From a bacterium (GTDB lineage: Bacteria > Zhuqueibacterota > Zhuqueibacteria > Residuimicrobiales > Krinioviventaceae), in NCBI GenBank assembly GCA_963693055.1, contig OY843751.1, positions 480,001-544,000 of the forward strand: a stretch of DNA of 64,000 nt, in the 5' to 3' direction. Positions within the stretch are counted from its first letter, which is position 1; every line of letters starts with the position of its first letter. Shown here piece by piece: positions 26,715 to 32,885 of this stretch. Under the pieces are notes generated by a model. The model did no database searches. It worked only from the letters and a program-made list of their open reading frames with translations, and had not been told where the DNA came from. Position numbers and translations under genes: made by a program.

Positions 26715-27851
26715 ATGAAGAAAAGAGCTTTTATCAACACGGCGGTTACGATAATATTTTTGTTCGGGCTTTTATTTTTTGGGGAAGAAATTCTATTGGC
26801 TCAACCCGGTAATGGAATGGGGCATCACGATGATAAAGGAATGCACGCATCATTTTTTGAATTGCTCACAAAAGATCAGTTAGCGGAAATACAATCACTT
26901 GTTGAAACCCTGCGAGAAGCGGGCAGTGACCGTGAGGCGGTTCGTAAAGCTGTGGACGCCAAATTGGACGAGTGGGGTGTTGAGCGCCCGGAACCCCCTA
27001 AAGGTGGTGGACATGGTATGCATGGTGGTCCTTTTGCGGATCTGACAGAAGAACAGCGTGCCGAACTGGAGACGCTCGTTAAAACCCTGCGCGAGGCGGG
27101 CAGTGACCGTGAGGTGGTTCGTAAAGCTGTGGACGCCAAGCTGGACGAGTGGGGTATTGAACGCCTGGAACCTCCGGAAGGGGGAAGATATGGCGGTCCC
27201 GGTAAACACGGAATGCCTTTTAAAGATTTGTTGACCGATGAACAGCAAACAGAGCTGGAGACCATGATCAGTAGCATGAGAGATGCCGGCAGTAGTCGTG
27301 ACGAGGTTCACGAGGCAGTAGAGTCTAAACTGGAAGAGTGGGGTATAGAGATCCCTGAGAAACCAGATCAGAACATTCATGAAGCTATGAAGGGCTTGAC
27401 AGCGGATCAACGCAAACAGGTACACGAGCTGGTCAAAGACATGCATGAGCAGGGAGCTGAACGTAAAGTAATTCAGGACGCAGTCAAGAGTATGTTGGAA
27501 TCGTTTGGGATAGAAATGGGTGACAGTTCCGAATCCGGTGATTCGAAAGTCGAAACTCAAAACAATTATGGAAGTACAATCCTGGCTGCAAGCAATTTCC
27601 CCAATCCTTTTAATCCTGAAACCCGGATCAGTTTTGAGCTGGGTAAAGCCGCTAGAGTAAGAGTGTCTGTTTATAATGTTAAAGGCCAGCTGGTAAATAC
27701 CTTGATGGATGAGTATCGTAATGAAGGGACCTGTCAGGTACAATGGAACGGAACGCTGGGAAATGGGGATACCGCGCCTTCGGGTATGTATTTTTTTAAA
27801 ATAAATGCCGATGATGAAACATTAACTGAAAGCATGTTATTAATGAAATAA
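26715..27851 (+). CDS. T9SS type A sorting-domain (FlgD-Ig) protein with four helical repeats
   Basis: Signal peptide; repeats LT.[DE]Q..E...LV..LRE.G..RE.V...V..KL.EWG; C-terminal NFPNPFNPET.I.F...YNVKGQ.V.TL...WNG...SG.YF...MLLMK. Confidence 0.88.
   Translation: MKKRAFINTAVTIIFLFGLLFFGEEILLAQPGNGMGHHDDKGMHASFFELLTKDQLAEIQSLVETLREAGSDREAVRKAVDAKLDEWGVERPEPPKGGGHGMHGGPFADLTEEQRAELETLVKTLREAGSDREVVRKAVDAKLDEWGIERLEPPEGGRYGGPGKHGMPFKDLLTDEQQTELETMISSMRDAGSSRDEVHEAVESKLEEWGIEIPEKPDQNIHEAMKGLTADQRKQVHELVKDMHEQGAERKVIQDAVKSMLESFGIEMGDSSESGDSKVETQNNYGSTILAASNFPNPFNPETRISFELGKAARVRVSVYNVKGQLVNTLMDEYRNEGTCQVQWNGTLGNGDTAPSGMYFFKINADDETLTESMLLMK
26901..27172 (+). repeat. Intragenic near-identical 95-bp direct repeats
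   Basis: 26901-26995 vs 27078-27172, offset 177 bp (59 codons). Confidence 0.85.
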
Positions 27852-27956
27852 GGAAAATTTTCCGGTAGGTTTTGGAAAAAAGGCGGTTATTTCATATAGT
27901 ATTTACTAGAAGTAACCGGAAGTCAAACAAAGATTTTAAAACTTACCGGAGGACAA

Positions 27957-28784
27957 ATGTACAATACTCGTAGTAGTTTGTATGACAGGATATTAGAAAA
28001 AACACCCGAGCAAGTATTCATCAATTCTTTACGAAAAGAATTTGAATTATCACCGGCAGAAAGTAAAGGGATATTGGATTTAGCCAAGCAGTGTTTATTT
28101 GGCGAGGTTCCCCAGACAGTTGGTAAAATAAAATATATCTGCGCATCCACCAAGGCAAAACATGGCAAGCCCCTGGGTGAGCAGGAATTGAAAGAAGTAG
28201 AGTTAACACTGGATGCCGGTGTAGAAGATTTAAATGTATTAAAAGAAAGCGGTCCCAAGGCACTGCGCCAGTTAAAGGTCTTACGATTGACCGAAGAAGC
28301 CTGGGATCAGGAAGGTTCTTTGACACAAGAGGATTTGGCCCGGATCCTCCAGGTTACGAGCCGCACTGTACGCCAGGATATAAAGTCTTTGCAGACTGAT
28401 GGCAACTTTATTCACACGCGCGGAACAGACCATGACATCGGTCGGAGCTTGTCACACAAAAGCCACATTATTGAACTGTATTTGCAGGGAGACACATACG
28501 ATGCAATTATTCGTAAAAGTCGTCATAGCGCGTTTTCAATAAAACGATATGTGTGCAGCTTTGGCAGGCTGTTGTTATTACTGAATCATGGTATGCAGGA
28601 TATCAAAGAGATCAGTCGGTTATTAGGCCAAAGTGAGCGTTTGACCCGTGAGTACCTGGATATTTTTGAGCATCATAAACAGGGTGACAAATGGCCGCCG
28701 ATCTATGTAGAGTTATTGGAGCAATTAAAGGTGTTATACCCCTCGAAAAAAAAACAAACCAAGGAGGGGATCGATGAAGACTAA
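27957..28784 (+). CDS. DUF1670-like protein, subtype A (element 1)
   Basis: A.DQ.G.LTQEDLA.IL..T.RTV..DI, TRG..HDIG...SHK..II.LY..G, HS..SI.RY; RBS ggagga. Confidence 0.8.
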   Translation: MYNTRSSLYDRILEKTPEQVFINSLRKEFELSPAESKGILDLAKQCLFGEVPQTVGKIKYICASTKAKHGKPLGEQELKEVELTLDAGVEDLNVLKESGPKALRQLKVLRLTEEAWDQEGSLTQEDLARILQVTSRTVRQDIKSLQTDGNFIHTRGTDHDIGRSLSHKSHIIELYLQGDTYDAIIRKSRHSAFSIKRYVCSFGRLLLLLNHGMQDIKEISRLLGQSERLTREYLDIFEHHKQGDKWPPIYVELLEQLKVLYPSKKKQTKEGIDED

Positions 28785-29589
28785 GCCTTTAAATCGTTAT
28801 GAATCAATAGCTAAGCGTAGCTTTCAAAATGCGATTATTCGATTACTGGAAGAAAATTATAAAATGCTGGGAAGCCACAAAGTCATCCGGATGATTGCGG
28901 AAGATATTGTCGCATTGCAAAATGAATTTTATCCAGAGCTGGAAAAGAAAAGTTTTGGTCAGATTATCTGGCGGACAACCAAAGCGACAAACCGAAAGCC
29001 AAGCTATGGCACAAAAGCGGAAGATTATGAGGTTCAGACAGTTGTGCTACCGTTGGTAACAGATGCGGATATTGACAATCGTATCAAAAGCCATTATTCT
29101 TATCCCCCAAAAGATGGCAGTGCTAATTATGAAAAACAAACAGAACGGGATATTAAAGTAATGGCGCGGTTATGCAAGAGTGCGGCAGAACAGGGCGGCT
29201 GGTTGACAGGTGCAGAACTCAGTGTATTGTTGAATCGCTCATTAAACACTATTGGTCGGTATATGACAATTTATCATGAAACGCATGATGATATATTGCC
29301 GACTAAAGGAATGATGCTGGATCAGGGCAGTAAGCCGACGCATAAAGCCGCAATTATAGATTTGTACGAGCAGGGATATCCCGAACCGGATATCGCCCGG
29401 ATTACAAATCACACAATTGAATCAACGAGTCGGTATTTAAAGAGTTACAAGAACGTAAAATCATTATTGGAAAAAGGTTTTAATTTAATGGAAATGGTAA
29501 GAATAACCGGATTAGGACGGAGTACAATATTACAATACCGTGATCTGGTTTATCATTATCATTCAGATTTAATACAAAAGAAAACTTGA
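28774..29589 (+). CDS. DUF1670-like protein, subtype B (element 1)
   Basis: GQIIW, A.EQGG.LT..EL..LL, LPTKG...DQG...THK..II.LY..G, HT..S..RY; RBS aaggagg; overlaps the end of A. Confidence 0.8.
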   Translation: MKTKPLNRYESIAKRSFQNAIIRLLEENYKMLGSHKVIRMIAEDIVALQNEFYPELEKKSFGQIIWRTTKATNRKPSYGTKAEDYEVQTVVLPLVTDADIDNRIKSHYSYPPKDGSANYEKQTERDIKVMARLCKSAAEQGGWLTGAELSVLLNRSLNTIGRYMTIYHETHDDILPTKGMMLDQGSKPTHKAAIIDLYEQGYPEPDIARITNHTIESTSRYLKSYKNVKSLLEKGFNLMEMVRITGLGRSTILQYRDLVYHYHSDLIQKKT

Positions 29590-29862
29590 AAATTTGAAAA
29601 GGAATTAATAGGTTAGGTTGTCATTGTTTTTCAGCTAACTCCAGTCGCCCTACGAGCTCCTTTCGTTAGCTGAAAAAATGAATAAATGTTCTAATCTTAA
29701 AAACAACCTACCGGAAATATTTCCTAAACGTAAATAGTATCATATGACCAGAGGAGAAAAAGAAATTTATAAAACCCCCTAAAAATACAACGGAGCGTCA
29801 GATCATTAATAAATTTGGTGATCTGTCATTCTGAAAGTAATAAAAGGGAAATATAAAAGCAA

Positions 29863-30687
29863 CTAATTGTTCTTTGAAAGATTCAACTGACTCCTTTGAT
29901 TTTTAATTTTATCAGGCAAAAGATCAACATATTGTTGTATGACACGTTTGGAAAGTCTTGCCAGCTGGCTGATTTGATCAAGGTTTTTAATGTCATGCTT
30001 CCAAAGTAATTCAACACGATGGTAATCTTTGATATACCTGTCAACCGCTTCGTTGCTGTGTTTGGTTTTCAAAGCGATTTCGGGAGTGAGATATCCCTCA
30101 AGATACAGAGTGATAATTTCGCGTTTATGAGTAATAGCGCCGGAAAGATCATGGATGTTGCCACGCGTTGGTAAGAGATGCCCTTCTTTTTGGATTTCAT
30201 TTACATATTTACTGACAACGGCATCACAGACACCGAGTAACATAGCCAGGTCAAGTTGAGTAAGCAGAGCACCTTGATCAAAAGCTTCATCAACCCAACG
30301 TTTGAGGCGTCTTTTCCTTAAAGTTTTGGAATCAAAACCATGCGCGATATGAGAAGTATCCTGATCAGTAATGAAAGAGAGGACAACGGGTTTCATTCGG
30401 GTAGCGGCAATACTTTTTCCGCGTTTGGGGTATTCATCGACAGGAACAGCCATCCAGACGAGTTGCCCATAGTGAATATGGTGCAAGTCATCATCAATAG
30501 AGGAGACAAGGAAATAGTCATCAATGATTTTAAGGATATCATCAATGATGGCATTGGCAGTGATGGCTCCTTTGTCATAGCCATAGCTATTCAAAAAGTT
30601 GTACAGTAGTAACTGCTTGAGATCTTTATCTTTAAGTCGTCTCATTTTTTTGAGTTGAATTTGTTCTTTAGTCAAAGGTTTACTCAT
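29863..30687 (-). CDS. DUF1670-like protein, subtype B (element 2)
   Basis: GQLVW, AFDQGALLTQ.DLAMLL, LPTRG..HD....THK..II.LY..G, HS....RY; ATG 30687 follows aggagg. Confidence 0.8.
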   Translation of the reverse strand: MSKPLTKEQIQLKKMRRLKDKDLKQLLLYNFLNSYGYDKGAITANAIIDDILKIIDDYFLVSSIDDDLHHIHYGQLVWMAVPVDEYPKRGKSIAATRMKPVVLSFITDQDTSHIAHGFDSKTLRKRRLKRWVDEAFDQGALLTQLDLAMLLGVCDAVVSKYVNEIQKEGHLLPTRGNIHDLSGAITHKREIITLYLEGYLTPEIALKTKHSNEAVDRYIKDYHRVELLWKHDIKNLDQISQLARLSKRVIQQYVDLLPDKIKNQRSQLNLSKNN

Positions 30688-31519
30688 TTTCTTTGCCTCC
30701 TGATAGATGTTGAGGAATGGATTTTTTTTTCGCGTCGCCACCAGGTTCCGCAGGAGATAACAGATCGTTTAATCGCGTATTGTTTTGTTGAAGATAGGTT
30801 TGGTAGAGTTGGATATACTCGCGCACCAGGCGGTCGGATTTCTTTGCAATGAGTCGAATCTGGTTCGGAGAGAAATTTTCCTTGTATAAAAGGGCGATCT
30901 GCATAAAGTCAGCGAGGTAACGTTTGATGCTGGTTTCAGAATGATTGGTTTTTTGTTCTATTTCTGAAAAGGTATAACCTTTAAGATACAGATCAATAAT
31001 GATGGTTTTATGAGACAGTCCGGGACCCATGTCATGTTTCATACCTCGTGTCATGATAAACATACCGTGATGACGGAGATGATAAATGTCACGTTTAACA
31101 GTGGCCGGACTGGTGGTTAAAAGCATTGCCAGGTCTTCATAGCTGAGTAAAGCACCCTGATCATAGGCTTGTCGAGTCAGACGGGCGATCCGGTGTCGTC
31201 TAAGTCCGGCAAGGCCATAATTAGCCAGGGCTTGCAGATCTGTATTAAAGTCAATTAGTTTGAGACGGACCGTAAGCTTTCGGGTTAATCTGATATGTTT
31301 GCCGGCTGGTTCTTCAGCGGCAACAGCTTCATAAGCGACTTCACCTCCTGATAATGAAATGTTGGAATGTTCCTGAAAGTATTGGTCAAATTGTTGATAG
31401 TAAGCTTCGGCAATAATAGGAGTCAAATTGAAATCCTGAGACAGTTTTTGGACAATAGCGTTTTTAGCTGTCTTGGATTCGAGTCTTTTTAAACCATAAT
31501 TATTTTTAACATCTGCCAT
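30680..31519 (-). CDS. DUF1670-like protein, subtype A (element 2)
   Basis: AYDQGALLSYEDLAMLL..S.ATV.RDI, TRG..HDMG...SHK..II.LY..G, HS..SI.RY; ATG 31519 follows aggaga. Confidence 0.8.
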   Translation of the reverse strand: MADVKNNYGLKRLESKTAKNAIVQKLSQDFNLTPIIAEAYYQQFDQYFQEHSNISLSGGEVAYEAVAAEEPAGKHIRLTRKLTVRLKLIDFNTDLQALANYGLAGLRRHRIARLTRQAYDQGALLSYEDLAMLLTTSPATVKRDIYHLRHHGMFIMTRGMKHDMGPGLSHKTIIIDLYLKGYTFSEIEQKTNHSETSIKRYLADFMQIALLYKENFSPNQIRLIAKKSDRLVREYIQLYQTYLQQNNTRLNDLLSPAEPGGDAKKKSIPQHLSGGKENE

Positions 31520-31596
31520 AAGAATCTCCTTATTTCTGTTTTTATTAAAACAATGATTCCTATGGTCATATGCACTAAACTTTAAATAGTTTATAG

Positions 31597-32561: not shown

Positions 32562-32626
32562 AACAACCTTTACCCAGGTTAATATTAGAAGGACAGTTGC
32601 CCTACCCAGCGGCTGTCCTTTTTTTT
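32562..32626 (+). ncRNA. Candidate sRNA 1 (two hairpins, UACCC loops)
   Basis: Promoter GAAC-N16-CGTT (32529-52); aacct-TTACCC-aggtt; aaggacagttgc-CCTACCCA-gcggctgtcctt plus T-run. Confidence 0.6.
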
Positions 32627-32767
32627 AGTTAATGTTGGCTATTGTACAATTTTTTGATTCTATTTTTAGAAAAAAAGTTTTTATAAATTTTTTTTAATTT
32701 AGTGGTTATTTTTTTAAATTTTGCGTATTTTTTCTGAACTTTTTTGCATGTAATACGTTATAAATAA

Positions 32768-32838
32768 AACAACCCCTTTACCCGGGTTGATAGCAGAAGG
32801 ACAGTCGCTCCTACCCAGTGGCTGTCCTTTATTTTTTT
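32768..32838 (+). ncRNA. Candidate sRNA 2, paralog of sRNA 1
   Basis: Promoter GAAC-N16-CGTT (32736-59); caaccc-CTTTACCC-gggttg; aaggacagtcgct-CCTACCC-agtggctgtcctt plus T-rich tail. Confidence 0.6.
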
Positions 32839-32885
32839 AATTGTGAATTTAATTGAACTTTTTTTTATATGCATGGTTGAAATAA

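What the first reader, a model, noticed from the sequence alone, without database searches (positions are those of the whole stretch)
28744..30732. Identical CG-A9 slippery run at the A/B junction of both elements
Seen: CGAAAAAAAAA (nine A) occurs near the end of ORF A in both elements (28744-28754 on +; 30722-30732 on -), read as KKK. In both, ORF B is in the +1 frame and that frame is open from the run to B's ATG. B also has its own AGGAGG RBS. Known: runs of 9 A support programmed transcriptional slippage, and split-ORF recoding is common in IS transposases (IS1, IS3, IS630). Inference: loss of one A gives a ~550-aa A-B fusion alongside separate A and B proteins, which may control activity. 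Conservation in two otherwise divergent elements argues against chance or sequencing error.
Basis: partly seen in the sequence, partly recalled or inferred. Interest (0 to 1): 0.78.

Follow-up and report, generated by a model that had tools for sequence, protein, structure and literature searches.

The report
Slippery A-run fusing transposon gene pair
Two small jumping elements each carry a run of nine A's where their two related genes overlap, a feature kept across many distant relatives, and it likely makes the cell slip one base there so that a fused double-length protein would be made beside the two separate ones.

Summary
Observation confirmed. Both multi-copy DUF1670-pair elements have A9 at the A/B junction, with B in +1 and its own RBS; all 13 genomic copies keep A9. 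The shared 'CG' is incidental.

Among 95 relatives (90% clusters), 90 have a run of 7 or more A's within 60 nt before B's start, against about 2% of control windows. B's frame is open from the run to the start in 95 of 95. In the element-2 clade, purifying selection switches from frame A to frame B at the run: spacer pN/pS is 0.58 in B and 1.22 in A.

Elements needing +1 mostly carry A9 (49 of 68). Those needing -1 mostly carry shorter A_AAA_AAG/A/C motifs (25 of 27). A programmed fusion is likely (about 0.85). RNA-polymerase slippage, as in IS1447, is the best mechanism here. No RNA or protein data test it.

The trick is known from IS3/IS1/IS630, but this family has two paralogous halves, no recognised transposase and no paper found. 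The scan found the family and this slip site before on other DNA (e1-7719340).

The parts
26715..27851 (+). Host gene with a C-terminal T9SS type A sorting-like domain. Both elements sit stacked in its last Lys codon, and the stop codon is supplied by the element end.
   Evidence: TIGR04183 at 31.5 bits, cut-off 23; junction analysis
27848..29731 (+). Element 1, 1884 bp, with subterminal inverted repeats 27851-27871 / 29705-29725 and a shared AA core at 27846-27847 and 29732-29733; 7 copies in the genome
   Evidence: contig ends
27957..28784 (+). ORF A1, DUF1670, 275 aa
28746..28754 (+). A9 slip site of element 1 (AAA AAA AAA in frame A; B frame is +1)
28762..28767 (+). AGGAGG ribosome-binding site of B1
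   Evidence: SD pairing energies
28774..29589 (+). ORF B1, DUF1670, 271 aa
29734..31583 (-). Element 2, 1850 bp, with imperfect inverted repeats near 29741-29755 / 31558-31572 and a shared AA core at 29732-29733 and 31584-31585; 6 copies in the genome
   Evidence: contig 29732-31585
30680..31519 (-). ORF A2, DUF1670, 279 aa from the ATG at 31519
30722..30730 (-). A9 slip site of element 2 (A9T; B frame is +1)
30688..30721 (-). 34-nt spacer between the run and B2's ATG. It is under purifying selection in frame B in this clade and would be the fusion linker. It contains AGGAGG at 30696-30701.
29863..30687 (-). ORF B2, DUF1670, 274 aa

Best explanation
The nine-A run is a conserved feature of the overlap between the two genes of each element, and it likely works as a programmed slip site where RNA polymerase sometimes drops one A, so that a share of transcripts would encode a 543-551-residue A-B fusion.

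Shown: the run, its position, the open B frame, the switch of selection to frame B at the run (element-2 clade), and B's own RBS.

Inferred: three products (A, B, A-B), with the run length setting the share of fusion. Relatives whose B lies in -1 would reach the same fusion with shorter A_AAA_AAG/A/C motifs, probably by ribosomal -1 slippage. By analogy with IS3-type elements, the fusion, a tandem of two paralogous DUF1670 modules, would be the scarce form that acts on the element ends (untested).

Odds: a fusion is made and selected, about 0.85; polymerase rather than ribosome given that, about 0.7.
For: 1) The run is conserved. A>=7 within 60 nt before B's start in 65 of 68 +1 and 25 of 27 -1 clusters, against 39 of 2272 control windows; no control window has A>=9. 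It holds down to about 26-35% identity of A. Held-out sets: 8 of 8 new intact junctions have A>=7, and 8 of 10 have A>=6.

2) The constraint is on nucleotides, not on lysine: 181 of 183 Lys codons are AAA against 133 expected, while KK elsewhere in the elements is AAA AAA in 138 of 297. The host writes KKK as A9 in only 31 of 383.

3) B is open from run to ATG in 95 of 95. Shuffles expect stops in 19.1 of 59 element-2-clade and 6.0 of 27 -1 cases. On a tree of 75 sequences, stop gains or losses in the spacer are 0 in frame B, 6 in frame A and 21 in the third frame.

4) pN/pS over 30 disjoint pairs: spacer 0.58 (0.45-0.74) in B and 1.22 (0.97-1.57) in A; upstream of the run 0.40 in A and 1.02 in B.

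5) No SD-backed B-frame start upstream of the run (0 of 95).

6) Run length follows the frame needed: 9 or more A's in 49 of 68 +1 but 2 of 27 -1, with the same trend in all three groups. The frame label changes at least 5 times on a quick tree.

7) Precedent: IS1447 A9T gave 9 A8 and 8 A10 among 52 cDNA clones, with +1 needed for OrfAB (PMC6211511, sections 8-9).

8) Distant single-ORF two-DUF1670 proteins exist (P0027, P0066, P0080).
Against: There is no transcript or peptide evidence.

The sample is lopsided and kin are not independent: 59 of 68 +1 clusters are the element-2 clade. The selection switch was measured only there. In the element-1 clade the spacer is short and openness is not significant (6 of 6, P 0.39).

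B has a strong RBS in nearly all cases (79 of 87 stronger than -6 kcal/mol outside the 8 element-1-clade rows, and 8 of 8 there), so the fusion is not needed to make B.

There is no conserved stimulatory stem-loop, unlike IS1447. In 63 of 68 +1 cases the run ends exactly at a frame-A codon boundary, which a ribosomal mechanism would predict as well.

Some relatives lack a long run: A5/A6 after G runs (L171, L154), A5 (L046), A4 (L374).

Close-relative fusions are 97-99% identical to split A9 elements, so they show mutation or assembly error, not function.
Confidence: 0.6

Rival explanations
1. The same fusion is made, but the ribosome slips (+1, -2, or sliding on AAA AAA AAA) and the mRNA is unchanged.
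For: The run ends at a frame-A codon boundary in 63 of 68 +1 cases. A8 variants in the element-2 clade all read xAA AAA AAA, the minimum for a tandem -2 shift. Ribosome sliding on AAA-lysine runs is reported in E. coli (PMC4363877, abstract only). The -1 relatives carry in-frame heptamers (25 of 27), and A6 cases fall in the needed phase (L339, L347).
Against: There is no conserved internal SD upstream of the run (observed stronger than null in 39 of 68) and no conserved downstream structure. The preference for 9 A's in +1 elements matches the polymerase cases (IS1447; 9A IS genes in PMC1088944). G-then-A mixed runs (L154, L171) suit a tRNA-Lys shift poorly (inference).
Confidence: 0.25
2. No fusion matters. 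The A-run is a ribosome pause or A-rich initiation enhancer that couples translation of B to A, and only separate A and B are used.
For: B has a strong SD and overlapping stop/start in nearly all cases. There is a slight excess of pairing between B's RBS and the sequence upstream of the run in the element-1 clade (7 of 8) and in -1 elements (19 of 25).
Against: It does not explain zero frame-B stops in 95 of 95, pN/pS of 0.58 in frame B upstream of B's ATG, invariant K-N and a hydrophobic codon in frame B, or A's stop moving up into the spacer while B stays open (L157, L198, L204, L019). The RBS-masking signal is absent in the element-2 clade (24 of 47; no consensus structure).
Confidence: 0.1
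3. The run is a DNA-level phase-variation switch: replication slippage makes rare A8 copies that are the active, fused elements.
For: In-frame fused variants of split elements occur (P0001-P0006, L205, L131), as does one A10 copy beside A9 sister copies (L096 against L089 and L093).
Against: All 13 copies in this genome are A9, although they must descend from active donors. Only 2 fused loci were seen against 216 intact split pairs. The variants may be assembly errors.
Confidence: 0.05

Closest known systems
IS1447 subgroup of IS3 (Clostridium thermocellum), +1 transcriptional slippage at A9T (PMC6211511; abstract and sections 8, 9 read)
   Same: Two overlapping ORFs in a small IS, B in +1, an A9(T) run at the end of orfA, 7-9 A's in relatives, and several products including the fusion.
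   Different: IS1447 fuses to a known IS3 transposase and has an adjacent stem-loop. Here A and B are paralogous DUF1670 proteins with no recognised transposase domain, no stem-loop is conserved, and the family mixes +1 and -1 junctions.
IS3/IS1/IS630 orfA-orfB recoding, including -1 shifts at A6G/C/A (PMC5009743, passages read; PMC6211511 section 8; PMC1088944, Results read)
   Same: The -1 relatives carry A_AAA_AAG (11), A_AAA_AAA (11) or A_AAA_AAC (3) of 27. Conserved 9A runs in overlapping IS ORFs are a described class.
   Different: In those elements a DNA-binding OrfA joins a catalytic OrfB. Here both halves have the same predicted fold (winged HTH plus HTH) and the catalytic part is unidentified.
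Thermus thermophilus dnaX slippage (PMC5009743, passage read)
   Same: Polymerase slippage at a homopolymer gives two protein lengths.
   Different: There the unslipped frame gives the long product, in a housekeeping gene. Here slippage is needed for the long product.

Membership tests
Programmed slippage/frameshift cassette of IS elements | Slip-prone run conserved at the ORF overlap in non-identical homologues (criterion of PMC1088944) | tested here: met
   90 of 95 clusters with A>=7; controls 39 of 2272
Programmed slippage/frameshift cassette of IS elements | Downstream frame open from the site and under coding selection before its own start | tested here: met
   95 of 95 open; pN/pS 0.58 in B against 1.22 in A, element-2 clade only
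Programmed slippage/frameshift cassette of IS elements | Transcripts with changed run length, or fusion protein, detected | not testable with these tools
   No RNA holder listed; only DNA contigs were laid
Programmed slippage/frameshift cassette of IS elements | Stimulatory RNA structure or internal SD beside the site (common, not obligatory) | tested here: not met
   No consensus pairs in 43 sequences; z-scores near controls; internal SD not enriched
IS3 family / IS1447 subgroup | orfA-orfB overlap with A9T needing +1 | tested here: met
   (T follows the run in 53 of 68)
IS3 family / IS1447 subgroup | DDE integrase-type catalytic domain in OrfB (feature recalled) | tested here: not met
   Pfam gives only DUF1670 and HTH families; NCBIfam gives nothing for B; the B profile finds no PDB sequence; B is a paralogue of A
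IS3 family / IS1447 subgroup | 5'-TG...CA-3' ends and a 3-4 bp target duplication (feature recalled) | tested here: not met
   Ends read ATAAGG...AAACGT and AAAGTT...TACTAT with a shared 2-bp AA core
Any transposase or recombinase of solved structure | Catalytic fold | tested here: inconclusive
   Model of A2 (pLDDT 78, pTM 0.44): no Foldseek hit at E<=0.001; best VIA Z 6.2, all to HTH/wHTH pieces

The most novel reading that the evidence does not exclude
The A-B fusion made by slippage is the active enzyme of an undescribed class of site-specific transposase built only from tandem DUF1670 modules. The free A and B act as regulators or accessory subunits. The family has switched repeatedly between polymerase slippage (A9, +1) and ribosomal frameshifting (A6N, -1) to make it.
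Probability: 0.35. Interest if true: 0.85.

Novelty: new variant of a known kind. Interest (0 to 1): 0.55.

Why it matters
These elements are clearly mobile (7 and 6 near-identical copies here), yet they encode no recognised transposase. If the selected product is an A-B fusion, anyone testing the family must express the fusion and not only the two annotated genes, so the finding makes the 'missing enzyme' question directly testable. The family also offers a natural comparison of +1 and -1 recoding at one homologous site. The slippage mechanism itself is known from IS elements, and this scan has noted the family and the site before on other DNA.

Tried and rejected
Expression: no RNA holder listed. 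The laid runs are DNA contigs and cannot show slippage.

CG as part of the signal: rejected.

RNA stimulators: no conserved hairpin upstream, downstream or masking the RBS in the element-2 clade. There is a weak hint in the element-1 clade. No Rfam match. The promoter/terminator scan was uninformative.

Alternative upstream start of B (such as the GTG at 30741): no SD-backed start in 0 of 95.

Poly-Lys tail as the reason for the run: rejected by codon use and by E/G/Q replacements that keep the run.

Natural close-relative fusions as proof of function: rejected as sporadic. Their cluster sizes could not be looked up.

The -1 heptamer count is largely implied by run length (any A8 gives one), so it is weak on its own.

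A motif likeness to the tyrosine-recombinase C-terminus (recalled pattern) was not borne out by fold searches. The result is inconclusive, not an exclusion.

The model of natural fusion P0002 was low-confidence (8 sequences, pTM 0.30, linker pLDDT about 48). Its viral fold search gave TM about 0.1 only. A deeper mixed alignment was misaligned and not used.

No relatives were found in plasmids or viral contigs. Archaeal junctions were not examined.

Literature: 'DUF1670' 0 papers, 'PF07900' 0 papers. Two of three supplements of PMC3711429 have no such terms; one could not be searched and could hold a matching frameshift cluster. Passages of PMC13343696 and the listing for IS plus T9SS target showed nothing on this family. 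Subscription journals and bioRxiv supplements are not covered.
Full report
Observation. The window holds two head-to-head gene pairs: A1 27957-28784 and B1 28774-29589 (+), and A2 31519-30680 and B2 30687-29863 (-). All four proteins are PF07900 DUF1670 and only about 30-38% identical to each other over their aligned parts. The A9 runs are at 28746-28754 and 30722-30730. B is +1 in both, open from run to ATG, with AGGAGG before the ATG. The window has 3 A9/T9 runs in all. DNA contigs of four runs show no indel.

The elements. The genome carries 7 copies of element 1 (one 92% identical) and 6 of element 2, and all 13 keep A9. Element 1 spans 27848-29731 and element 2 spans 29734-31583, each with subterminal inverted repeats and a shared AA at both junctions. 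All 7 element-1 copies and 4 of 6 element-2 copies sit directly in the last Lys codon of genes ending in a GxY...K* tail. The window's element 2 is stacked at the same site as element 1, and one element-2 copy is elsewhere. The window's host gene has a T9SS sorting domain. This targeting was a lead from earlier scan notes, checked here in this genome.

Survey. Loci came from whole-genome searches and from two collection scans that kept only the 80 best matches to A2 (80 of 288; 80 of 591), so the element-2 clade is over-represented. Of 243 candidate pairs, 27 were dropped as truncated, broken or mis-paired. The remaining 216 fall into 98 clusters at 90% identity. One had no callable B start and two were frame 0, leaving 68 with B in +1 (59 element-2 clade, 6 element-1 clade, 3 other) and 27 with B in -1. 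One -1 row, L096, is probably an A10 variant of a +1 element.

Run conservation. A run of 7 or more A's lies within 60 nt before B's start in 65 of 68 and 25 of 27, against 39 of 2272 control windows in the same genes. No control window has 9. Two held-out sets agree. In one search, 15 junctions were printed; 3 were repeats and 4 not intact, and the other 8 of 8 have A>=7. In one search, 17 rows were printed and 10 were new true junctions; 8 have A>=6, and L338 (A5) and L374 (A4) are the exceptions. Among independent 50%-cluster representatives, KK occurs in the last 30 residues of 38 of 52 A-type and 12 of 41 B-type proteins.

The constraint is on the nucleotides. At +1 junctions 181 of 183 Lys codons are AAA (133 expected). 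KK elsewhere is AAA AAA in 138 of 297, and the host genome writes KKK as A9 in 31 of 383. The preceding CG is not conserved.

Frame B is selected from the run onward. It has no stop between run and ATG in 95 of 95. Shuffles expect 19.1 of 59 and 6.0 of 27 with a stop; the element-1 clade alone is uninformative. On a tree of 75 element-2-clade sequences, stop changes in the spacer number 0 in B, 6 in A and 21 in the third frame, leaving out the codon after the SD. Over 30 disjoint pairs, pN/pS in the spacer is 0.58 (bootstrap 0.45-0.74) in B, 1.22 (0.97-1.57) in A and 1.06 in the third frame. Just upstream of the run it is 0.40 in A and 1.02 in B. The B-frame spacer reads K-N-(P/Q/L/H)-x-(L/F/M). 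No SD-backed upstream start explains this (0 of 95). The simplest reading is that ribosomes enter frame B at the run (inference).

Which machine slips. Runs of 9 or more occur in 49 of 68 +1 but 2 of 27 -1 elements, with the same trend in each clade. The -1 elements have in-frame A_AAA_AAG/AAA/AAC in 25 of 27, which is partly automatic for A8. The frame label changes at least 5 times on a quick, unfinished tree. No conserved RNA structure or internal SD was found. IS1447 has A9T, needs +1, and shows A8 and A10 transcripts (PMC6211511, sections 8-9). Conserved 9A runs in overlapping IS ORFs were described in PMC1088944 (Results). Ribosome sliding on AAA runs (PMC4363877, abstract) and the codon-boundary end of the run in 63 of 68 keep a ribosomal route open. 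No RNA data could decide it.

Natural fusions. Six long proteins and two loci are in-frame A-B. P0001, P0002 and L131 are 97-99% identical to split elements, so they are sporadic variants or errors. Three distant 50% clusters are single-ORF two-module proteins (P0027, P0066, P0080). A larger three-module form occurs both as 504-534-aa first ORFs and as 930-952-aa single ORFs. A tandem DUF1670 chain is therefore a natural architecture, though its activity is unknown.

What the fusion does. The A2 model shows a helical N-terminus, a beta-hairpin, a winged HTH, a conserved RG..HD.G...HK loop and further HTH helices. It has no significant match to a solved transposase or recombinase. B has the same predicted topology (low confidence). 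By analogy with IS3/IS1 (PMC5009743, passages), the fusion would be the rate-limited active form and free A or B would be regulators. This step is analogy only.

Novelty. 'DUF1670' and 'PF07900' return no paper; one supplement of PMC3711429 could not be searched. The recoding trick is a known kind. Its use to join two paralogous, enzyme-less-looking genes, in both directions within one family, is a variant I did not find in print. Earlier scan notes already reported the element family and the slippery junction in another genome (e1-7719340, seen after my analysis). They are not independent evidence.

Verdict: observation confirmed; interpretation supported; fusion about 0.85; polymerase slippage overall about 0.6; interest 0.55.

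Noticed in passing
window 27846-31585; G000 copies listed: Two unrelated elements (about 30% protein identity) insert at the same AA of the last Lys codon of sorting-domain genes, in opposite orientations, and each supplies a new stop codon. Here they are stacked at one site. One element-2 copy (G000 about 6088445-6090300) is not in such a gene.
   Followed up: partly
G000:C1 about 1730449, 5975640 (left ends) and 333437 (right end): Orphan element-1 ends without the genes. The one at 1730449 is also at the end of a GxY...K* gene.
   Followed up: no
P0016, P0018, P0032, P0037 (930-952 aa); P0088, P0101, P0117, P0148, P0151; loci L342, L347, L377 and others: A larger variant with three DUF1670 matches: ORF1 about 520 aa and ORF2 about 440 aa. 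It has the same A-run junction in most cases, and single-ORF forms exist.
   Followed up: partly
P0027, P0066, P0080: A distant clade of single-ORF two-DUF1670 proteins of 532-546 aa; their DNA context was not seen.
   Followed up: no
L154, L169, L171: In GC-rich relatives the run becomes a mixed G-then-A tract (G5A5 and similar) at the same place, with frame B still open; possibly heteropolymeric slippage.
   Followed up: no
window 28735-28775 and element-1-clade loci L037, L041, L045, L143, L183: A pyrimidine stretch just before the run can pair with B's RBS, putting the A-run in a loop. The signal over synonymous shuffles is weak (7 of 8).
   Followed up: partly
window 26865-27358: Three 177-189-nt spaced repeats inside the 378-aa host gene (repeated helical units before the sorting domain).
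   Followed up: no
window 32567-32844: Two-copy direct repeats of about 34-35 nt spaced 208-209 nt in an intergenic region, each followed by a T-tract.
   Followed up: no
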